DNA of 63,913 bases, counting the filler, from Collodictyon triciliatum (taxonomy: Eukaryota), in assembly GCA_043381765.1 (NCBI GenBank). It is 11 parts of 11 records of this genome, joined end to end, with 100 filler letters (N's around TTAATTAATTAA, not from the genome) between each part and the next. Parts side by side here need not be neighbours in the genome. Positions count along the whole stretch, not along the records: positions 5,829 to 11,555 come from JBHJMP010004990.1; 10 more parts are not named here. One strand, 5' to 3'. Both the position numbers and the translations under genes were made by a program. Below the pieces are notes generated by a model. It worked only from the letters and a program-made list of their open reading frames with translations, was not told the DNA's origin and made no database searches. Below are positions 2,474 to 32,471 of the stretch, piece after piece; position 1 is the first letter of the stretch, and each line of letters begins with the position of its first letter.

Positions 2474-5413
<2,940 letters not shown>

Positions 5414-5728
5414 AACCTCGGGTGCTCTGCCCTTGCGTCCTTCCCTCCGCCCTGTGCCCGAAAGGCAACGCACATCCTCCACATTTGCACAGGAACCGCA
5501 CGTGCACTTGTCTATTGCTGGAATTTATATCCTGAACTTCTGCTAAACGATAACGTGCACAATTTTCGCCTTGATGGTGAGAAATTTGACTTTGCATGCG
5601 AATATTTGGAGGGTTGTTGTAACTGTGTGGCGCTGGCCTCTTTGGGTCATTCACCTGCCAGCTTGCAGTTTTTGTTCGGGCTGACATATCGCTTTAAAAA
5701 AAAAAAAACAAAAAAAAAACAAAAAACA

Positions 5729-5828
5729 NNNNNNNNNNNNNNNNNNNNNNNNNNNNNNNNNNNNNNNNNNNNTTAATTAATTAANNNNNNNNNNNNNNNN
5801 NNNNNNNNNNNNNNNNNNNNNNNNNNNN
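5729..5828. other. Artificial contig linker (N-run/TTAATTAATTAA/N-run); also at 11556, 17381, 23204, 29027, 34846, 40663, 46477, 52291, 58105
   Basis: The same 100-nt linker with all-frame stops occurs ten times; contig lengths decrease steadily (~5.73 to ~5.71 kb). Confidence 0.98.
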
Positions 5829-6781
<953 letters not shown>

Positions 6782-7145
6782 CTTCAGTGAACTATTTTTG
6801 CCTTGTTGTGTATGTTTAGTTTTCTATTTTATCATCTGTCTTTTTGTGTCGAATGTACGCCCTTTTTTCTTTCTCCTGTAGGCATATCATATCTTCTTTG
6901 CTGTCTCTTCTTTTAGTTTGTCGTGTTTTGTTTTGCGTGTGCGTGACTTGATTTCTGATCGGTTCTTTCTGGTTGCACTGGTGTTGCAAAGGCAGGTAGC
7001 AGAAGGAATTTGACAGGTTCTAATGCACCACGAGAAGTACGACGAACTAAATTGGAAGACATGCCAGTTCGGGATGATGGACACTTTGAATCAGAGACCA
7101 GCTTGTCTAAGATTTTTCTTTTCCTTCCTTCTTTATTGCAGTCAG

Positions 7146-7265
7146 CTAGAAGGAGTATACCAATCGAAAGAATGGTAAACCTGGTGCGCTAGTATCCAAG
7201 GTCTCACCACCTTTTTCGCAGATATTGTGTGGCGGTGAAGGCTGCCAGGAAAGACCCGACAGCCT
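7146..7265 (-). ncRNA. Candidate Fanzor omegaRNA scaffold
   Basis: Four back-to-back stem-loops (7239-7265, 7204-7238, 7178-7203, 7158-7177) just downstream of the Fanzor frame, with G-U pairs that form only on the Fanzor sense strand. Confidence 0.6.
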
Positions 7266-7299
7266 GTTTTTTAGAGATAGGTGATGCATATTTTGAAGA

Positions 7300-9183
7300 T
7301 TAAAAAAACTTGAGTATATTTTTAGCGCTGTTAAAGTCCCTTGTCAAGAATACAGTTTATTTGCTTTCTGAGCGATGGCATTCTTTACATATGAGACATT
7401 TATACATCTTTTTTGAACTTCCTTTCAGTTTGATATGTTCCAGTTCTTTTTCGCAGCTGCAGCACATCTTGGAGGTTCTAAATACATTTACACTAACTGC
7501 TTCAAAACGTTTGGTTAGTATTTTTATAATCCTCTTCCGATTGTTGGCATATAAAGGTCTCATCGGACATTTTCTGCTCCAGTCTCCACACGTCAGTACA
7601 ACATCCTTGCCAAATGTCTTTTTGATTCGATTCATAGACAATTCTTCACTTGTTTTTGTATGAACATACTGCCTCCATCTCATCTTTGGAAAAGTTACTT
7701 GTTCATAAAAATGTGGATAGTTCTATCTGGTATCTTGATTTCATATATACATATTTCGAAATTATTCATAATCGACAGCGCATGAATTATGGTTACTCAG
7801 TTCTGTCTCTAAATCGATTAAAGATAGTCTCGATATCTCAAACCGCTGATTCTCTTCAAAAGTCCTGTAACCAAAAGAAACAGCACTTTGCAAATCTGTT
7901 GCCATCCATATCCCTAAGAATTGTATTATTTTTCTCGCACAAGAGTATTTTACGATTTTATAGAGATTTGCTACCATGTCTTTGGTGTCCGTGTAACATA
8001 ATTTCATACCTGTCTCATCCACCACGTAAACAAAATTAAACTTGCCTGAGTCCAATCCAACTTTTTTTTTTGTCGCTAATGAAGATAACTGCTGTTCGGA
8101 AAGTTCATCTATATAACCATATTCTTGTGTTTTGTTTTGATTATATATGGATTTTGAATTTGAAATACCTTTCTTTTGAAAGAATAATGACACCGCCAAG
8201 CCGTCTGTTCGTATCATATATTTAAAATCGTGGTCTCTTTGATGAAAGACTTTCTTCTTCATTTCAAAGAACTCATCTCGAAGTGTCTCTTTGCATCCTG
8301 ATATATTCTTCATTGATAATGTTTTTCCAGCTGACACTAATAGATATATCAAACATGCAGTATCTGGAGTAATATGACATGGTATATTATTAGTTCTTAC
8401 AAAAATTGGTTAAAGCAGTTTGGTTCCAATGCCCTCAAAAATGCAATTCATCTAAAACAGACACGGAATGTACTTATTTGGGTTGACTTTGACGACATAT
8501 TTGATAGCTTTTACAATATCGTTGGGAATGATATGATGCAAATGCGTTGTAGCCCATCCTTTAAATTGTTCTGGTATGTCGAGATTCATGAATATGGGTT
8601 TTTTTTTTTAACTTTCGTAACTCTGCCTTCTTAATAGCTTCCGTCATATTCTCATCTTTAGGAGCTGTTTAATTTATAAAGCGCAGTAACCTATTTACGA
8701 AATGTTTGTCAATGTTTTTTTTCTCCTTTATTCGATTCAAAGAAATGTTTGTCAATGTTATTATGATAAGCTGTTAACATTTACTTCGCCAAGTACGGGG
8801 ATACATGAGAATGTCCAACCAACGGAGGGCGTTCTTCTCGGGACAAAAGGAATCGAAAATCACTGAGATAAAAATCATCATACCATCTCTCATATCTGGT
8901 TTTTTAAACTTGTGGGTCTATCTTGTGAAACTACTCCAACTGTCTTAAAAGCGTACAAAAAAACATTGTCATCAATTGTTGGGAGTGGTTGTGATTTCAA
9001 TATGTAACATCTTGCAAACAGATAGGTGTCAGTAACCAAAGTATGACACAATAAAACTGTATCGTTGACTTTGTCATAGTCATCCGCATTCTTTACAATC
9101 GACTTTAGAGATGTTTTCACATTTTGATAGTCTGGTTTTACAGACTTAAGATTCTCAAACTCAAGCCGTTTTCTTTTCTTCAC
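7300..9183 (-). pseudogene. Fanzor1 (eukaryotic TnpB-family RuvC nuclease), frameshifted and nonsense-disrupted
   Basis: Ordered motifs: N-terminal KTSLKSI...TDTYLF; YHNNIDKHF..RLLRFIN; IRTDGLAVS; RuvC-I VGLDSG; GDWS; RuvC-II N(E>V)FRTSKMCCSC; CKEC zinc finger; RuvC-III TRDFNSAKNI after an in-frame TAA at 7357. Confidence 0.88.
8699..8759 (-). mobile_element. Micro retro-insertion, family A, inside the Fanzor frame
   Basis: 18-bp TSD GAAATGTTTGTCAATGTT (8699-8716, 8742-8759) around minus-strand TTTGAATCGAATAAAGGAG(A)n. Confidence 0.85.
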
Positions 9184-10626
9184 CAGAAAGTCTTTGTTTT
9201 ACTTTTTCCTTTAAAAAACCACCGAGTTTTCAATTTTAATAAAACTCTAGTCAATCAGTCTATTTGATAATAAAAAACAGCATCAAATCAATTTATGTAT
9301 AATTAAGCATCTACCAAGACTCTCAAAATGTGCGCATTGTGGCAAACAAACGCACAAAGTTTTTTTTTTTACAAGTGATTTGAGACAAAACGCTGAGAGC
9401 CTATTCGGCGAGTTCGAAATGACGGCTGTATAGCAATTGTAACTGAAAGTCAACATATCGGCCTAAACAACATGATTAACAGCGCAAGTGTGGGTTGGAT
9501 GGTTTTTGGAATGCATGTTTGCTGGCAGGTTTATTGGGTGGGTTCTGCCTAGGCCAACGCAAGGACTTGTTTGTATTTTTTGAATTTTAATGCGATAATA
9601 TTACATAAATGAAAACAAAGTATAAATTGATTATATGAATAAAATGAGATTATTAAGTATTTTTAATCTGATTGTATATACTAATATACTATTACATTAT
9701 TCAGGTTTTTTCTTGGATTCATCAAAGCTTCTGCTTTCGTCAATCCAGATTTAATTCGATGGTTGTCTGTGCAATAAACTGCTATATATGGTTACACTCG
9801 TTGTATAAAAGTGTTGTGCCTTGAAAGGGATAAAACCAAGTTCGTCACAGCCTTTGTAATGAAGTTTATCCATTTACCAGCCGAATGAGACCGAAAAAAA
9901 AAGGAAAAATGAAAAGTAAAAAGAAAGAAAACAAAAAAAAATTGAAAAAGAAAAGATAAATGAATCAGAGCAACTAATTCTGAGCATTATGTTCATACTT
10001 ATCTTGCTACCCGTGTTTCGATGGCTAGAGCTCGATCGATTTTTCTATTCCCCTTTATTATTATCATTATGATTATTATTATTGTTTCAAAGAGTTCACT
10101 CTGTCTTATTAGTAGTTTGCTGTACTCACGGGTCGGTGTTCGCTGGCGTCCTGATCGTCGGTGTGTCTCTGTGCACAACCTGTGTTATGAAGGATGCGGT
10201 AAAGTGACCCTTTTGCTCTCTGTGTTGGCTGCGTCGGCCTTCCTGGTTTGCGTACGGTCAGTAGGCATTCAATGGCGCAGAGCTGTGGCGTCGGTCTCCT
10301 GATTAACGGTCTCGTCCTTCTCAGGATTCCTCTTTCCGATCACTTTCTGTTTTTTTGTTTGTTTTTTCGGCTTCAGGACATGCTGGGTTGGCAGAAGAAA
10401 GAAAGAACCCGAGTGTAATATGATTATTTTATGAAGATTGTGTCCTTTTTTTCTCTGTCGGTGTTTAATATTTCTCAGCAAAGGGAACTTTTTCTTATTC
10501 ATATCGTGTTTTTTTTATTGTTCCTCTCGGCTCTGTCTCTCCTTGTGTGATCACCACATTTATTCGTATTGCAATTAATATAATTTGATCAGTCTTTGGC
10601 CTGGGTTGGAACATTGGCTCACTTCA

Positions 10627-10790
10627 CAAACAAATAAACAAATAAACAAACAAACGAACAAACAAACGAACAAACAAACAAACGAACAAACAAATAAACA
10701 AACAAACAAACAAACAAACAAACAAACAAACAAACAAACAAACAAACAAACAAACAAACAAACAAACAAACAAACAAACAAACAAACAAA
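10627..10790. repeat. (AAAC)n microsatellite
   Basis: Direct inspection. Confidence 0.95.
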
Positions 10791-11235
10791 GGATGCCAAC
10801 TTATTGCAGGCAATACATAACACGCATTGTCCTTCACAGGAGCGCGCAGAGCTTTTGTTTACGCATTTTAATTTTTTATTTCGGTTTTTCATCTGATTGT
10901 TTCAGTATTTTATTTGCTTTTATATATTTATATGGTTATTTATTTTTGTTGGATTACTTTGTGCTGTCTTTCTACAAAACTTTCGCTGTTTGAGTTCCAC
11001 AACTCTATTTTTTTTTCGGTGCCCAAAACAACAGTTCCGCGCGTATACTTTTCATTGAAACGTACTCTTGACAGAAAAAAAAAGCAGCATAATGTTGTTT
11101 TCCCCCGTCTCCTTATCTTCAAATAGAATAAAGAAACTTAAGCAAAGCAAAGCAAAGCAAAGCAAAGAATAATAATATTCACAAAGACCATCTTTCGGTT
11201 TATTGCTTCGCTCAACATTCCTTTGCCTTCAGCAG

Positions 11236-11335
11236 ATGAGACTTTCGTGGAAGACTCTTCTGGCGGCTTCGGTTTTGATCGCTGCCGTTGCCTGGTGCAT
11301 CCCACTCATGGACGCACAAGAAAAGCCCGAACATC
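11236..11335 (+). CDS. Possible first exon of a secreted protein (signal peptide), truncated by contig end
   Basis: MRLSWKTLLAASVLIAAVAWC followed by a GTATGA donor. Confidence 0.3.
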
Positions 11336-11454
11336 GTATGACTTTTCTTTTATCGGATACTTGGCCTTCTTCCGGACAGCATCAGCCTTCTTCCTTCTGC
11401 TAGATGCCAAAATAATAACAATAATTTTTTTTATTACAACACAATACCAACAAC

Positions 11455-11555
11455 AAAAACCAAAAACCAAAAACCAAAAACCAAAAACCAAAAACCAAAA
11501 ACCAAAAACCAAAAACCAAAAACCAAAAACCAAAAACCAAAAACCAAAAACCAAA
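11455..11555. repeat. (AAAAACC)n 7-mer tandem repeat
   Basis: Direct inspection. Confidence 0.95.
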
Positions 11556-11695
11556 NNNNNNNNNNNNNNNNNNNNNNNNNNNNNNNNNNNNNNNNNNNNT
11601 TAATTAATTAANNNNNNNNNNNNNNNNNNNNNNNNNNNNNNNNNNNNNNNNNNNNAAGTAGAGTAGAGTAGAGTAGAAACAACAACAACAACAAC

Positions 11696-11798
<103 letters not shown>

Positions 11799-11819
11799 GT
11801 AAATAAATAAATAAAGTAT

Positions 11820-14800
11820 TTTACTTTCTGAAGCTCATCAGAGGTATGCGATGTTAGAATAACGTTCATATTTGCCGAAATTTGTGAAATCCAGTCGAGT
11901 TTTTGAGGACAGGAGCTGATTTCACATGGAGAGAGATCATCAAATCCGTCAATTAGGACAACGTACTTTGACCTAGGATAATAATCATTGAAATATAATT
12001 CCCTAAGGAGTTATGTGTTTTCTCCTAAATACTATTGTTTGAAATTTTATTTTATCTTCACCCAGGGTCACCAGCTGTCTTATGGCACAATAATTTGAAA
12101 CTGTCTATCGTTGGAGATTCCGCTATTTCCGAAAAATTATATGCCAATTAGTCTGACTTTTATATTATTGTTATTATTAAGAAAAATTGGGTCAAATCTA
12201 TGAAAGTAATGACATACTGTGCAATCCATAAGCATTTAGGAGATATCGGAAAAAGCTGATAATTTTTTTTTGATAAATACATGAATAAATGAATGAAGCG
12301 AGTTATATCTGAAGAAGAAAACGTGAACTACATGCTATTTATGAATTTGAAGATAAATGTCGCTTTATATTTACTCACTGCGACAAACTGTTTCCTCTCC
12401 AACCATGAGCTACAAAATAATCGATAACTTTGTAGCCTTCTTCAAGTTTCAGTTTGGAAGCCAGGGCAGACATTAAGAAAGTCTTACCACAACCTGCTCT
12501 CAAGATAATTAGAAAAATGAGAAATAGAAATAAAAGAAAGCAAAAGGTAAACCATGACAACAAGAAAAGGGTAGAAACTACAATGAATTCAAGTGCGCAG
12601 GAAAAAAAGAGAGCAGTATTTGCATTCGCATATCTTATAACCTTTGGAGCCATGTAATATAATAGGCTTTCGATCACTTGGCATTGACGTTACCTTTAGA
12701 CATAAACAATGTATATTTATTTAAATAGTCTAATTTCTAGAATGGCTCCTTTTTTTTTTTTTGATGTGTTATTAATTTATAGGGAATTATACTAGGTGCA
12801 TGAGATTCTCCATAATGTAATCCCTTTCAACATAATACTGCTTGACGTGGATATGGAGTAAACGATTGTGCATATTTTGTTGCTCAGTTATCTAAAATTA
12901 AATGTGAGTCTTCTGATAATCATCAAAAATTCAAAAGGATGACTCTATCATAATACAAAAAAAAAAAGAGGGAAAAAACAATCAAGGCTGTTTCTATCAA
13001 ATTTCTTTACCGATTTTTCATCTCCTAAATCCTGAACAATCGCAGTCTTAAGATTCCTTAAGGACTTAATACACAGTTGCTGGATATTCTCATACGAAAC
13101 ATAACAAAATGACTCATGACTGACAACGTCTCTGAATTCTTTTTGTTTCAAGTCCTGTGCCATGAAGAAAAAAACAAAGTGAATGTAAACTGCGTTTTCA
13201 AAGACTTTGAGATGGAATAATATACTAAATTCTTTGTCTGAGAAATGTGTTTTTACACCGAATACTACCTCCTTCCCTACAGATTTCTCCCTAGAGTATA
13301 TAATCATCCTTGACACAGTACACCATTTCTCTGAAAGGATAAGTCTGATCTATTCATCGAATCAGAGATTAAGAAAAGGAAGGGCACGAGCATACCGATA
13401 GCTGGTATACAGTATACTTTGTATCTTTTACCTTCCCATAACGATCCAAGTTAAAACTATATGCATAACAAGACATAAAAGCAAGAGAAAAATACTACCA
13501 AATCATATATTATAAAAAATAAAGTAAAGCGTTTTTTTCTCCATCGACGAATTAACATAATCAAATATATATATTCAGGCATACTTACCTCTATTTCGTT
13601 CAAGCTCTTTTCAAGGCACGATTCAAGAAATTTGTATCTTTCTTTCTTGAATAGCATCAGTCTTGATAAAGATTCTTGAGGAGGAACCCATCCATAGCTT
13701 AAACATGATTTTATGTTAGCGATGGAAAAAAAAACATATTTTTATATATTTAAACCACACTGAACGTTCTTTAAGTCCGTGTTGAAGAACAAAAGATAAT
13801 ACTTATCGTATATGTTAAAAAAAACTGCATGCAAAGCAATAAACAATAAAATATTCGGTATAGAGTTGGTTTGTTACTCCACCAATCGCCTATGAAAGTA
13901 ATGTAGTAATCACAGTTTGCGATAGAATCCAATATAAAATCCCAAATCTAGTTATTTTGACGTGACTAATCTCCACATATATTAGGGTTATATACATTTC
14001 TTTGAAGGGTGTTTATACCTAACGAATTTTTTATTGCAATTCCAAATAAAAGTGAAGAGAAAAAACCTTTTCTTCATCCTGTAGTGTTTCTTTTATCATA
14101 CCAACATCAGAATACACAAGCTCGAATCCAACATTAGCTTTGGCACAGTGCTCCTTTAGCCTAATATCCCATTAATAATATTACTATAAGCAATATGAGG
14201 TAAATTATATCGAATACACACATGCATACATGATAAATAAAATTACTTAAGCTCTGTAGATATAGATTTTTTTTATTTTATTTAGAGTACCAAACCAAAT
14301 TATTAAAAAGCTTAAACAGTAACCTTGGAATGGTGAATTCGCGAAAGTAGTTGAAATCGTCTACCAGATCCACATCGTGACAAGACACAAACAAACGAAG
14401 TACTCGTTCAGTGACCGACTTTATGCTGACCGGCTTCACAAAACTCGCCTTAGTTTGGAAAAAAGTTGAAATGGATTGAAATAGGCGACATACCGAAGAT
14501 ATTGTAGATTGGAAAATAATTTCCTTAAAAATATTCTTAAACATTGTTAAAGCTAGACACAAAGTCAGATAAAGAGGAGAACGAAAAAAACTTGTGAAAA
14601 AAACTCATGGTTACATGGCATGTCTAAAAAAGAAGATAATTCATCAAATCACCACACAACGAGGATATGTTCCTTAATGTTTTCTTTCATTTAAAGAAAT
14701 ATACGATATTGATAAAAAAAAAAGCAAAGCAATAATACTAGAATACCACCAAAATTAGAATTTTTTTTTTAAAAAAAAACAAGGAAAAGGCGATATACTT

Positions 14801-15596: not shown

Positions 15597-16258
15597 GGAA
15601 AATAAACGTATATATATATAGATAAGGTGGGAGTGAACTGAAAAAATGAGACAAATGGGAGTCAGAAGGTGGGGTTTCATCGGGGACACCGTTTGAGCGT
15701 TTGTCATGCGCATGCTGAGGGATAGCCTCCCGTTCAGTCGGTGGACATAATGTTTGGTTTTTGTGATTTTCTTGGAGTGGATTTTGCAGCTTGTGGCGTT
15801 CGGCCTGCGTTGGGACTCTCATTGCCTGTTTTTTTTTTTTTTTTTCTCTCTTTTTTTCGTCTTTTCTTCTTGCTTTTTTCTTGAAATTACAGCGAGTATG
15901 GCTACCTGGTAAACAACCACAAAAGCCACCCCCTCGTGACGCAAAACATGCGAACACAAGACACCCGCTTTTCCACAATAAGAAACTAATTAAAATACCA
16001 TACATATATATGGCTTAATTTGTTACCGTGTATTTTGAACGGGAGCTCGACCTTTCTGGTTGCTTTCACAGAGGATGGGGTTGTCTTGTCTCGAAGGCAG
16101 CAGCCACGCACAAAGCACTTCACAGCAGAACAGGGTAAGCAGAGCCAAGGGAGTCAAAAGAAGAGGTAGGTGAGAATAGAAGGTACACAAGTACAGCAAA
16201 CACAGAAAAGAAAAAAAAAAGAAGGAAGAGAAGGAAGCACGCTCGGCAACTGGACAAG

Positions 16259-29195: not shown

Positions 29196-32100
29196 CTTAT
29201 TTTTTGATAAGTCCAGATATACTAGGCCTGTAAGAGCGAAGCATGACTCCGAGAAAGATACAAGCTGTGAAAAGGTGGTGAGTTACAATATGGTCAATAA
29301 TAAAATTTGTTGGTGGCCTTTTTTTTATTTATTTATGTGAATATTACTTCGTTTGAATGGAGGTAGAGTTTCTTTAGCCCAACTAAATGCCTGAGCCAAT
29401 CAGGAATCTGAGAGAGCTTCATATCGCCCATCCACAGCGAAGTTGCATGTTGAATTCCATGATTGTTAGGGGAGTACTGCACATTCATATATTGAATTTC
29501 TTCCAATTCTTGAAGGGTACTGGAGCTTAATGGATGTTTAGGAGACTCAGTCTCATTTGGATGTAGGTGGTCGTTTATGAATTGGGATGCAAACGAGAGT
29601 TCTTGCTCAGAAAGCGAATGGGTCGCATGAACATCGGGCTGGTCAAGCTTGGATATTGTGCTTCCGTCAAGCCTCAGAGCCATTACTTTCTCAAGCAGTC
29701 TTTTCGACAGTTCGTCTTTCTTTTTCTGCAGATGAGTCACCAATTGGCTGTAAAATAATTGTTCAACTTTTTTCTTTGGAGCTTGGGAATCGCTAGTGTC
29801 TTCCTCTTTCGACAGTTCTACAAATGCACAAACGTCATCTGATGATATGTGATACATATCAACCATCGTCCTTTCATCCAGTATGTCTTGAATTTCTTTG
29901 AAACTTATCCAGCTTTGATTTGAAATTGTATCGCTTAGTTTTAAAAAGCCATACTCTCGCAGCCACTCCACAAATTCACCCTGGTACATATCAGCCAAAG
30001 GAGTATATTTAATTGGAAGCAGTTCGTTCATCACTTTTTTAGAAAGCTTCGGCTCATCTGATTTCAATTCACCCAGGTATATACAAACTTGATTCAAAGA
30101 AGGTCGGAGCTTGTATTTTTGCCTCCAGCACGCTCTGATAAGGTGGTTAAGCTCACGAGTGGCTTCTTTCGGTATTTCAAGCCGTAATCCCCTGATAATG
30201 AAACTCTGTGTCTCTTTTTCATTCATAAAAGGCTCGACGCCAGAGAACATGTACCAAACGAGCATTCCCAAAGCATACACATTACTTGGTTCTCCACGAT
30301 GCCCCTGATTTACTTCATCATCACCATACATTTCTGGATTATCATTATAAAGCGGTTTACATGAAACTTCATGGATTTCCGGTGCTTGCCAATTAACAGT
30401 CCCGTCTCGCTTGTTCTCACCAAATCTCGTCGGTAAGTTTGACCCGACTTTATCAACTTCACGATGGCTCACTATCCCAAAATCCACAATTTTTACTGTT
30501 GTTTCGCCCACAATCATAACATTATCGGCCTTCAAATCTTCGTGATATAGATGCTTGGAATGCATGAAAATGAGACCCTTGCAAAGCTGCTTTGTGTAAG
30601 AAATTATTTGAGGTAATGTTGGCTTGATATTTTTCTTCTCCAACATCGCTTTCAACGAAATACCTGCATTCTCCATAATCATGAAAAAGTCGTCATCTTT
30701 ACGATACACACCAAATAGTTCGACAATATTTTTACATTCCTTGCATTCATATAGAAACTTGCTTTCAAAAATGAGCGATTGAATCACCTGGCTGAGGGTC
30801 TGCTTCTTACTCTTCTGGACGGTTTGGATTTTCACCACAGCACTTTTTCCTTCGAACATCGTTGTATAAACTCGCCCATATGCCCCCTTTGCGAGATAAC
30901 CTGACAGTTCTATTTTTTCATGAATCCATTGGTCTTTTAATTCCCGGTCGATTGAATCCATCTCAAGAACTGCTTCAGCAGGTTGCGACTTCTTTTTCTT
31001 TTTCTCTCTCACCACAGAGGTAAATCTCTTCGAGATTCCTTTATTTTTCAAGAAAAAATTATTTACTAATTTTCGATAATATTTAATCGAATTAATATTA
31101 ATTTAAAAATAAACATAAATTCGAATATAGTTATTATAATAAACCTTGTTCCAGATAGACGCGCCCTTGCTTCACTGTACTCGCTTCTAGTTTATGGTTT
31201 CTGGTACTACATACTTTCAATTCTGAGTCATCTATCTTTGCCGATGTTTGAATATAACCGTCTAATTCATGGCGCTGGCATTCAGGGCATTCAAATTGAT
31301 ATGCTTCCACAAAATTTGGTCGAATTGATGATATTTGTTTGATGAAGGTTGAAAGGATATCAAAAATCCTGACGAATCTATCACCTTCATGAACGTTATT
31401 TTCGTATTTTCTAATCTTGACTGAAATATTCTTCTGGTGGATTTGATACAAAATAATCAAACCGTCTCCAGGAAGCAGTTGAATTTCATCCGTTCCTGTT
31501 TTGTAGGAAGCATTTAGATGTATGAACGCCACATCTCTGAAAAATTGGTCGTCATACTGAACTCCGGCTTGTGCCTCTTTTGTCAAACGAAGCGCTTGAA
31601 TGACAACGTTACTTTTGTCAGAGAGTTGGACTCCACCATTGGTCATTATTTTTACAGAGGTTTCAGCGATGCAATTTGACTCTGGTTTATCATTCCATAA
31701 TGCTTTGAGATTTTGGCAATCCTCCATCAATGCGGGGAAGGCGATGCATTCTCTGTTGAATTGAATCCCAAGGCCGAAATGGTCAAAGATTCGAAGAATT
31801 GTATTGAACACATGTCCATCCATTTCTGTTTTCAATTCGTGTTTTATTCGGTCTTTTAGCTTGCCCAACAAAATGATGCCACTTGTGTCCTTTCCAATGC
31901 CTTTGAAGCTGAAGACACAGCGAAAAATGTTGATGAGAAAGAGCGGGTCCAAAAATAAAATATCCTTGATATTTTCAAGTGATGAATACCAAACGACCGA
32001 GCCAAGGTCATGGAGAAATTTGAGAGCACTTTCGCACCCATTTCTGTCCATACCCAGCTGCTTCTCGGCAAAATCGTGAGTGTCTTGGATTCGTTCGTAC

Positions 32101-32427
32101 TTTGATACTTGGCCTTTTGAATCCAGATAATCTTTTAGCCCAATGTATGTTTTTGGAACGTCCTTGTTCATGTTATCAAGTCTCATCATTCCTTTGTATA
32201 TCTCTCCCTTCAAATCTGAGATTTTTGTTCCACTCTTGTTGCTTACTTTCAACTCTGTATTGATGAAGATGTGGCGAGCCTTTTCATCCAGTTTCTGCTC
32301 ATTTTCTTTTTTGATTCGTATGATTTCTTTCTGCATCTCCTGGCTATACGTTTGATTTTCGCAATCTTGGCGAGTTCCAGCAATTATGATTTTTGAGCCG
32401 GGCGCGAAGTCATCGAGCATTTTGACC
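29196..32427 (-). CDS. Roco-family protein fragment: C-terminal half of Roc, COR, kinase, SAM-like region, LRRs (introns 31039-31144, 29265-29347)
   Basis: Roc G4/G5 IIIAGTRQD and VSNKSG; COR motif FLHDLGSVVWY..DPLFL; kinase GAYG/VVK/HEDLKADN/DFG/WQAPE; LRRs LKKLYLHSN and LVYLDLSKN. Intron phases are compatible. Confidence 0.85.
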
Positions 32428-32471
32428 CTGATATTTATTTATTCTAGATATATAGAATAAATAAATATCAG
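32428..32471. repeat. Perfect 19-bp inverted repeat with 6-nt spacer
   Basis: CTGATATTTATTTATTCTA-gatata-TAGAATAAATAAATATCAG. Confidence 0.95.

What the first reader, a model, noticed from the sequence alone, without database searches (positions are those of the whole stretch)
7146..7265. Four abutting, strand-specific hairpins directly 3' of the Fanzor frame: candidate omegaRNA
Seen on the minus strand: AGGCUGUCGGG/CCUGGCAGCCU (11 bp, 2 G-U), UCACCGCC/GGUGGUGA (8 bp, 1 G-U), GACCUUGG/CCAGGUU and UACCA/UGGUA, with no spacer between stems, then UACUCCUUCUAG. The G-U pairs would be A-C mismatches on the other strand. The third loop contains CUAG, which could pair with the terminal CUAG as a pseudoknot. 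Established: TnpB/Fanzor omegaRNAs come from the element's right end and the guide from flanking DNA. Inference: the scaffold ends near 7146 and the guide begins CUGACUGCAAUAAAG.
Basis: partly seen in the sequence, partly recalled or inferred. Interest (0 to 1): 0.85.

Follow-up and report, generated by a model that had tools for sequence, protein, structure and literature searches.

The report
Relic guide-RNA end of dead Fanzor
The flagged hairpins are real and most likely the leftover guide-RNA scaffold at the right end of a decayed Fanzor1 transposon copy in a eukaryote, which makes this a further example of a published design and not a new kind of system.

Summary
The four abutting hairpins at 7146-7265 (minus strand) exist as described. 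They fold far better than shuffles (z -3.81, 0 of 200) and better than the opposite strand (z -1.69). This is the most structured of 72 local 120-nt windows. Taken singly, hairpins 1, 2 and 4 beat chance; hairpin 3 does not.

The gene upstream is Fanzor1, but it is dead: at least 3 frameshifts, 7 stops in its last segment, and the invariant alternative catalytic Glu replaced by Val. Hairpins 1-2 are not "3' of the frame". They overlap the last ~20 codons of the ancestral frame (KKQAVG...W-stop), as published for GtFz1 (17 aa) and as seen here in 61 giant-virus relatives.

About 430 contigs in each of two runs from other organisms cover the element down to the 7135-7241 bin and nothing from 6814 to 7134. 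The repeat family's right end therefore lies at about 7113-7160.

No covariation test or RNA evidence was possible for this subfamily. A covariance model of the viral relatives' scaffold does not match the window. The exact end at 7146, the proposed guide and the CUAG pseudoknot are unsupported.

Verdict: probable relic omegaRNA scaffold (0.65), a new member of a known kind.

The parts
7303..9183 (-). Decayed Fanzor1 gene (pseudogene). RuvC-I D, zinc-finger cysteines and RuvC-III RDFNSAKNI are kept; the invariant alternative Glu is replaced by Val.
   Evidence: tblastn of P0001 needs 4 segments in frames 0/2/1/0. There are 7 in-frame stops inside the last segment 8604-7225. Identity to P0001 is 51%. 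P0001 hits PDB Fanzor1 chains at 2e-28. The E-to-V change is seen in the alignment, at the position invariant in 25 of 25 relatives.
7204..7302 (-). Ancestral C-terminal coding tail that overlaps the RNA scaffold. It reads ...SKKQAVGSFLAAFTATQYLRKRW, with the stop TGA at 7206-7204 inside the 3' arm of hairpin 2.
   Evidence: The frame-1 translation aligns with the tails of P0001, P0152 and P0153, which all carry KKQAVG. tblastn reaches 7225.
7239..7265 (-). Hairpin 1 (candidate SL1): 11 bp, 5-nt loop.
   Evidence: -19.2 kcal/mol, z -5.85, 0/200. It starts at the codon after the last conserved protein motif (F-K-K, equivalent to RPxxFxR in relatives). Inferred codon changes in the P0001 and P0153 tails keep the pairing (inference).
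7204..7238 (-). Hairpin 2: 8 bp, 19-nt loop; contains the ancestral stop codon.
   Evidence: z -3.22, 2/200. The family-wide difference at 7231 turns C-G into U-G, so the pair is kept; the one at 7218 lies in the loop.
7178..7203 (-). Hairpin 3, weak.
   Evidence: -4.5 kcal/mol, z -0.56, 52/200 shuffles as good. Absent from the centroid in the 231-nt context.
7155..7180 (-). Hairpin 4. The core UACCA/UGGUA is 7177-7158, and it can be extended to GUUUACCA/UGGUAUAC. It is the candidate terminal stem of the scaffold.
   Evidence: z -4.11, 0/200. In 61 viral relatives the last stem's 3' arm is the very end of the element.
7113..7160 (.). Interval that holds the right boundary of the repeated element family.
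   Evidence: Contigs of runs X1 and X2 (434 and 429 laid) give depth 78 and 55 in bin 7135-7241 and 0 in the three bins 6814-7134. The tool masks 7113-7137.
7118..7154 (-). Possible fifth hairpin (UCCUUCU/GGAAGGA) enclosing AAUAAA. Either element-internal or flank.
   Evidence: -10.3 kcal/mol, z -2.31, 8/200. Not resolved.

Best explanation
The segment is the right-end, guide-RNA (omegaRNA/reRNA) scaffold region of a Fanzor1-carrying transposon, preserved in a copy whose nuclease gene has decayed. In an active element, the inferred mechanism is as follows. A transcript of the Fanzor strand is made or processed into a ~110-140-nt scaffold. It begins at hairpin 1, which overlaps the last ~20 codons of the nuclease gene. 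It runs through hairpin 2 (holding the stop codon) and a variable middle part to a terminal stem (hairpin 4) at the transposon end. It then continues ~15 nt into flanking DNA, which serves as the guide. The nuclease would hold hairpin 1 on its RuvC/TNB surface and use the flank-derived guide to cut element-free target sites. Shown here: the gene family, the pseudogene state, the fold and its strand bias, the ORF overlap, and the coarse family boundary. Inferred: transcription, protein binding, the exact scaffold end and guide function.
For: (1) Gene identity. P0001 is 51% identical to the window frame and matches GtFz1 9cer at 2e-28, PpFz1 9cf0 at 3e-24 and SpuFz1 8gkh at 4e-23. It has 3147 relatives at E<=1e-3. 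(2) Fold. z -3.81 against -1.69 on the other strand; top of 72 local windows. HP1, HP2 and HP4 are individually better than chance. (3) Position. Hairpin 1 starts right after the last conserved protein motif. The ancestral frame runs ~20 codons into the structure and stops inside hairpin 2. Saito et al. 2023 (PMC10432273, passages) report a 17-aa overlap for GtFz1, and Xu et al. 2024 (PMC11423790, passages) report four stem-loops and 150 nt for the GtFz1 omegaRNA. GtFz1 is P0001's best structural relative. (4) Same layout in relatives with DNA. In 61 distinct giant-virus loci (37-47% identity to P0001) a 116-162-nt conserved scaffold starts 1-2 codons after the same protein motif. It contains the stop codon 44-92 nt in (one exception). 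It shows compensatory pairs in SL1 and ends with a stem whose 3' arm is the element end. Conservation falls to background within 3 nt after it. (5) Family boundary. X1 and X2 contigs cover 7135-9800 and nothing in 6814-7134. (6) KKQAVG is kept in 4 of 4 available tails while the loop residues differ. The inferred changes Leu-to-Ser (CU to UC opposite GG) and Ala-to-Thr (G to A opposite U) would all keep hairpin 1 paired, if Ser is UCN (inference).
Against: The covariance model R1, built from the 61 viral scaffolds, finds held-out viral loci: L002, L005 and L007 at 1e-6 to 1e-7, L001 at 2e-6. It gives no match at 7100-7300 even at E<=10 with filters off; the best match elsewhere is E 0.43. There is therefore no sequence or structure homology to the only relatives with DNA. 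No nucleotide alignment of this subfamily could be obtained, so there is no direct covariation. No RNA run is on record. Hairpin 3 is at chance level. The density of family-wide differences is about the same in the segment (2 per 120 nt) as in the ORF (about 33 per 1880 nt among the 40 rows shown of 603), so there is no sign of extra constraint in this copy. No inverted repeat of the right end was found in the contig piece. The nuclease here is dead, so the RNA has no partner in cis.
Confidence: 0.65

Rival explanations
1. It is only the 3' UTR and terminal region of the transposon's mRNA. The structured sequence precedes an AAUAAA signal and has no guide-RNA role.
For: AAUAAA lies at 7137-7132, inside a possible fifth hairpin. 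Depth arithmetic suggests the family may reach the mask at ~7137. The viral omegaRNA model does not match.
Against: Every Fanzor1 tested in the papers read encodes its guide RNA at exactly this place (PMC10432273 and PMC10711439, passages). The overlap with the ORF end and the stop-in-stem layout match GtFz1 and the viral relatives. A UTR role does not exclude processing into an omegaRNA.
Confidence: 0.15
2. The hairpins are subterminal DNA or RNA structures used by the element's transposase (end recognition), not by Fanzor.
For: They lie at the element's right end. In relatives the terminal inverted repeat is part of the last stem.
Against: The G-U pairs make the fold strand-specific at the RNA level. 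No matching left-end inverted copy was found in the contig piece. Published work shows that TIR and TSD are recoded into the Fanzor1 RNA scaffold, so the two roles coexist (PMC10711439, passages).
Confidence: 0.1
3. A chance or neutral relic: a stretch that happens to fold well, with no function in any copy.
For: Hairpin 3 is at chance level. There is no covariation data. This copy is decayed.
Against: 0 of 200 shuffles fold as well, and it ranks first of 72 local windows. KKQAVG and the opposite Ala codons are kept at 51% protein identity while the residues between them vary. The position is exactly as expected for the known RNA.
Confidence: 0.1

Closest known systems
GtFz1 omegaRNA (Guillardia theta Fanzor1; PDB 9cer; Saito et al. 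2023 PMC10432273; Xu et al. 2024 PMC11423790)
   Same: Best solved-structure relative of the intact homologue P0001 (2e-28). The published RNA has four stem-loops, is 150 nt long and overlaps 17 codons of the ORF end (passages read). Here there are four stems, ~110-120 nt plus guide, and an overlap of ~20 codons.
   Different: The published SL1 has 7 bp and hairpin 1 here has 11. This copy's nuclease is a pseudogene.
Right-end scaffold of giant-virus Fanzor1 transposons
   Same: Proteins are 37-47% identical to P0001. The scaffold starts 1-2 codons after the same C-terminal motif, the stop codon lies inside it, and the last stem ends the element.
   Different: No detectable sequence or structure homology: model R1 finds nothing at 7100-7300. 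In the viral scaffold the last stem encloses a 50-60-nt insert with its own hairpin and pairs the TIR with an internal anti-TIR. Here hairpin 4 is a simple 20-26-nt stem-loop, and no TIR partner was found.
SpuFz1 omegaRNA (Spizellomyces punctatus; PDB 8gkh)
   Same: Encoded between the ORF end and the right inverted repeat, with a 75-nt scaffold plus a 14-15-nt flank-derived guide (PMC10432273, passages). The protein is related (4e-23).
   Different: The SpuFz1 RNA lies wholly downstream of the stop codon and has two stem-loops. The candidate here overlaps the ORF and has three to five stems.

Membership tests
Fanzor1 protein (eukaryotic TnpB homologue) | Significant similarity to characterised Fanzor1 proteins over REC/WED/RuvC/TNB | tested here: met
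   The window frame is 51% identical to P0001 over 99% of the queried part. P0001 matches GtFz1, PpFz1 and SpuFz1 at 2e-28 to 4e-23. Pfam gives only a sub-threshold Cas12f1-like_TNB hit (18.4 bits against a cutoff of 26.3).
Fanzor1 protein (eukaryotic TnpB homologue) | Intact reading frame and catalytic set (RuvC-I Asp, alternative RuvC-II Glu, RuvC-III Asp, CxxC...CxxC) | tested here: not met
   At least 3 frameshifts and 7 in-frame stops in 8604-7225. The Glu invariant in 25 of 25 relatives (E555 of P0001) is Val in the window. The Asp of GLDSG, RDFNSAKNI and the four Cys are kept. It is a dead member of the family.
Fanzor1 omegaRNA / reRNA | Encoded on the nuclease strand at or overlapping the 3' end of the gene | tested here: met
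   Hairpin 1 begins at the Gln codon of KKQAVG. The ancestral stop at 7206-7204 lies in hairpin 2.
Fanzor1 omegaRNA / reRNA | Scaffold conserved among copies up to the transposon right end, followed by copy-specific sequence (guide) | tested here: inconclusive
   Family cover ends between 7113 and about 7160 (depth 78/55 in bin 7135-7241, 0 in 6814-7134). Resolution is one 107-nt bin and the tool masks 7113-7137. Only 12 of 219 loose ends were shown.
Fanzor1 omegaRNA / reRNA | Conserved secondary structure supported by covariation | tested here: inconclusive
   No DNA of close relatives could be fetched (searches found nothing usable). There is only inference from three protein tails that hairpin 1 pairing is kept. 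The two family-wide differences in the segment are structure-neutral, but n=2.
Fanzor1 omegaRNA / reRNA | Homology to an omegaRNA family with known sequences | tested here: not met
   Model R1 of 61 viral scaffolds gives no match at 7100-7300 at E<=10 with filters off, although it finds held-out viral loci. Rfam 15 has nothing there; the one match is E 2.9 on the other strand.
Fanzor1 omegaRNA / reRNA | Expressed as a small RNA extending ~15 nt past the element end and bound by the nuclease | not testable with these tools
   No run on record as RNA holds the stretch. Binding needs an experiment.

The most novel reading that the evidence does not exclude
The P0001-type Fanzor1 lineage is compact (~648 aa). 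It is present as hundreds of contigs in two further organisms, and at least one intact ORF is on record. It may use its own omegaRNA scaffold of three to five abutting hairpins, unrelated in sequence to the giant-virus and published Fanzor1 scaffolds. A purine/pyrimidine fifth hairpin may enclose a poly(A) signal at the scaffold-guide junction. That would make it a distinct scaffold class and a possible link between mRNA 3'-end formation and guide-RNA release.
Probability: 0.3. Interest if true: 0.5.

Novelty: new member of a known kind. Interest (0 to 1): 0.3.

Why it matters
If confirmed, it adds one more Fanzor1 lineage, with a compact ~648-aa intact relative, whose guide-RNA scaffold differs in sequence from those characterised. 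Such scaffolds are raw material for genome-editing tools and for understanding how they diversify as Fanzors move between transposon families. For annotating this genome it simply marks the right end of a dead transposon copy. The design itself (ORF overlap, stems, end at the transposon terminus, flank-derived guide) is already published.

Tried and rejected
- Whole genome: none is held for this window, and there is no second copy in the window by blastn or tblastn.
- Earlier scan notes: no notes on this genome and no look-alike stretches.
- Closer DNA relatives: none found. The metagenome scan gave one 21%-identical locus, L001. Genome contigs gave none. Viral contigs with P0001 and with subfamily alignment A3 gave none. 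A back-translated FKKQAVG pattern in viral contigs gave 16 matches, none next to a Fanzor.
- Protein fragments: a search for fragments of 30-93 aa found none.
- Sequencing runs: no RNA holder is listed. X3 laid nothing.
- Rfam: nothing relevant.
- Terminal inverted repeat: only 9-15-nt chance-level matches. The 11-nt match at 18400 lies in a different contig piece and does not extend. A 16-nt right-end word with up to 3 mismatches has no partner in the piece.
- Pseudoknot CUAG/CUAG: considered and not adopted. It is 4 nt and self-complementary, it may lie in the guide if the scaffold ends at ~7155, and the Fanzor1 literature reports loss of the pseudoknot (PMC10711439).
- Alternative genetic code as the cause of the in-frame stops: rejected. 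All three stop codons occur and frameshifts are present.
- First z-score scan: it timed out and was repeated in smaller form.

Full report
**Observation**

- hairpin 1: 7265-7239, 11 bp with 2 G-U pairs;
- hairpin 2: 7238-7204, 8 bp;
- hairpin 3: 7203-7178;
- hairpin 4: 7177-7158.

The MFE is -42.7 kcal/mol with z -3.81, and 0 of 200 dinucleotide shuffles do as well. The + strand reaches -35.7, z -1.69. The fold is therefore strand-specific, as expected when G-U pairs matter.

In a 231-nt context the four stems remain in the MFE. Hairpin 3 is lost from the centroid.

| Hairpin | z | Shuffles as good |
|---|---|---|
| 1 | -5.85 | 0/200 |
| 2 | -3.22 | 2/200 |
| 3 | -0.56 | 52/200 |
| 4, extended to GUUUACCA/UGGUAUAC (7180-7155) | -4.11 | 0/200 |

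In my own scan of 72 120-nt windows on the minus strand (step 60, starts 6226-10486), the window overlapping the finding had the lowest z (-3.34). The background was -0.01 +/- 1.21.

**Context: the window**

The window is not one continuous locus. It consists of pieces of about 5.7 kb in descending length, joined by N44-TTAATTAATTAA-N44 linkers. The finding lies in the piece 5829-11555, and only that piece is its genomic neighbourhood. Other pieces carry eukaryotic domains: NIDO, FG-GAP and ROC-COR kinase.

**Context: the gene**

The minus-strand frame 9183-7303 is a Fanzor1 gene in ruins.
- tblastn of the intact homologue P0001 needs four segments in frames 0/2/1/0, so there are at least three frameshifts.
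- The last segment, 8604-7225, holds seven in-frame stops, using all three stop codons.
- The Glu that is invariant in 25 of 25 aligned relatives (E555 of P0001) is Val in the window.
- The RuvC-I Asp, the four zinc-finger Cys and RuvC-III RDFNSAKNI remain.

P0001 (648 aa) is 51% identical to the window frame. It matches the solved Fanzor1 structures GtFz1 (9cer, 2e-28), PpFz1 (9cf0, 3e-24) and SpuFz1 (8gkh, 4e-23). It has 3147 representatives at E<=1e-3 in the 1.84-billion library. Pfam alone gives only a sub-threshold TNB-domain hit.

**Relation of the hairpins to the frame**

P0001 ends ...RDFNSANNILNNALSILKIPHTKLFKKQAVGYSSTALTVTHKRMRM. In the window the same frame, after the stop at 7302, reads ...SKKQAVGSFLAAFTATQYLRKRW, with a stop at 7206-7204. 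tblastn carries the alignment to 7225.

Hairpin 1 therefore begins at the Gln codon of KKQAVG, and the ancestral stop codon sits in the 3' arm of hairpin 2. Among the 102 of 151 family proteins in which my motif search found RuvC-III, the conserved protein usually ends about 20-25 residues later in RPxxFxR. That is the F-K-K just before hairpin 1.

Two more tails were found: P0152 (...LFKKQAVGYLP) and P0153 (...LFKKQAVGFHSAACMVTHRNM). KKQAVG is kept in 4 of 4 tails, while the residues that would form the loop vary (SFL, YSS, FHS).

Reading the codons back gives two kinds of change. Leu-to-Ser (CU to UC opposite GG) and Ala-to-Thr (G to A opposite U) would each keep hairpin 1 paired, provided Ser is UCN. 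This is an inference from protein sequences, not an observed nucleotide alignment. Hairpin 2 is only partly compatible in those tails.

The read-laying table of insertions shows that the family carries +1 nt at 7266, 7283 and 7297 and +3 nt at 7316 relative to the window. That explains why the window has 13 residues instead of 15 between NIL and KKQAVG, and a local frame disturbance.

**Family boundary**

Two small runs from other organisms, within one study, hold 434 and 429 contigs that lie on the element at 80-99% likeness.

| Bin | Depth X1 | Depth X2 |
|---|---|---|
| 7135-7241 | 78 | 55 |
| 7242-7348 | 135 | 260 |
| 6814-7134 (three bins) | 0 | 0 |

The tool masks 7113-7137. Simple arithmetic on the depths at 7218 and 7231 suggests that cover continues to about the mask edge. 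The assumption of flat depth fails for X2, so I draw no finer conclusion.

Of the 40 best-supported differences shown (of 603), two fall in the segment. 7218 lies in the loop of hairpin 2. 7231 changes C-G in the window to U-G in the family, so the pair is kept. With n=2 this says little. The density matches that of the ORF, so this copy shows no extra constraint.

Upstream, the family continues past 9183. The window copy departs from it at 9766, and a far more abundant repeat covers 9703-9800.

**Relatives with DNA**

No closer DNA could be fetched. IMG/VR, however, holds 452 giant-virus loci encoding relatives. The best 80 (37-47% identical to P0001) were kept.

From 81 loci I extracted 63 distinct 3' segments and aligned 61 of them. 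L027 and L030 were left out because of long insertions. The aligned segments share these features:
- They form a conserved scaffold of 116-162 nt (mostly 117-143), running CGTCTTTCAC...GGTGTA.
- It starts 1-2 codons after the same C-terminal protein motif.
- It holds the stop codon 44-92 nt in (one exception).
- It is 100% conserved through GGTGTA and falls to background within 3 nt.

RNAalifold finds SL1 with compensatory pairs: columns 11/50 are CG 30, UA 16, AU 15, and columns 13/45 are CG 49, GC 11. It also finds a terminal stem in which the element's last bases pair with an internal complementary word.

This is the layout published for Fanzor1. The TIR and TSD form part of the scaffold, there is no pseudoknot, and the RNA extends ~15 nt beyond the end (Yoon et al. 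2023, PMC10711439, passages). GtFz1 has a 17-aa overlap with the ORF (Saito et al. 2023, PMC10432273, passages). The GtFz1 RNA has four stem-loops and 150 nt, SL1 is held by RuvC/TNB, and the rest is variable (Xu et al. 2024, PMC11423790, passages).

The window's segment has the same layout: start after the motif, stop inside the second stem, a stable last stem near the family boundary.

**A result against homology**

The covariance model R1 built from the 61 viral scaffolds recovers held-out viral loci: L008, L027, L030 and L041 at 1e-21 to 1e-25; L005 and L007 at 2e-7; L002 at 1.5e-6; and the right end of L001 at 2e-6. It also finds inverted left-end copies.

In the window (5000-12000, filters off) it gives ten matches at E<=10. 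The best is E 0.43 at 9037-9146, and none overlaps 7100-7300. The resemblance is therefore one of architecture and position, not of detectable sequence or structure homology. Rfam has nothing.

**The scaffold end**

Three positions remain open:
- By analogy with the viral family, the scaffold would end 0-3 nt after the 3' arm of the last stem, at about 7155-7152.
- The published inclusion of a TSD (up to 12 nt) in the scaffold leaves 7146 possible.
- The tail UCCUUCU can pair with GGAAGGA at 7128-7122, enclosing AAUAAA (z -2.31, 8/200).

No inverted repeat of the right end exists in the contig piece. The left end is therefore missing, diverged, or not a TIR.

**Verdict**

The most likely reading (0.65) is a relic of the omegaRNA-encoding right end of a Fanzor1 transposon: a new member of a known kind, sitting beside a dead nuclease gene. 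The rivals are a plain 3' UTR or terminal region (0.15), transposase-recognition hairpins (0.10) and a chance relic (0.10).

The pseudoknot, the exact end and the guide are not supported. What is missing is nucleotide-level comparison of copies of this subfamily and any RNA evidence.

Noticed in passing
window 5729-5828, 11556-11655, 17381-17480 and every ~5.8 kb after: The window is a chain of ~5.7-kb pieces in descending length, joined by N44-TTAATTAATTAA-N44 linkers. Sequences beyond 5829-11555 are not genomic neighbours of the finding.
   Followed up: partly
L002-L081 (IMG/VR giant-virus contigs), 3' of each Fanzor1 ORF: A large giant-virus Fanzor1 family (452 loci matched) carries a strongly conserved 116-162-nt right-end scaffold, CGTCTTTCAC...GGTGTA. 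SL1 covaries, and a terminal stem pairs the element end with an internal complementary word. Model R1 also finds inverted left-end copies (L001 1975-2029, L027 1562-1620, L030 2015-2086).
   Followed up: partly
window 9703-9800 and 9766: Depth of laid contigs jumps to ~712-721 in 9703-9800. Contigs run on past 9766 with a shared, unlike sequence (agreement 0.78-1). The window copy seems interrupted upstream of the ORF by, or joined to, another far more abundant repeat.
   Followed up: no
window 7118-7154 (-): A pyrimidine run UCCUUCU pairs with the purine run GGAAGGA and encloses AAUAAA. This is a possible fifth hairpin and poly(A) signal just past the flagged segment (z -2.31, 8/200).
   Followed up: partly
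window 7483-7485 (-): The Glu invariant in 25 of 25 aligned Fanzor1 relatives (SVNEFRTSK) is Val (SVNVFRTSK) in the window copy.
   Followed up: yes
protein P0154 (NCBI source, 136 aa): This is a predicted protein that looks like a translated pseudogene of the same family. Its N-terminal part is frame-shifted. Its tail repeats the RuvC-III region in a second frame (TLTALKIYS), matching the window's frame-2 reading of 7343-7310.
   Followed up: no
window 5829-6781 (-): A long poly-Gln/His-rich open frame starts at the ATG at 6781, about 365 nt downstream of the element end on the same strand. It is presumably a host gene or low-complexity ORF.
   Followed up: no
window 16139-17113, 18968-20062, 20987-22261, 29336-32438: Other pieces carry long open frames with FG-GAP, NIDO, protein kinase and COR-A domains, consistent with a eukaryotic source that has few introns in these genes.
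   Followed up: no
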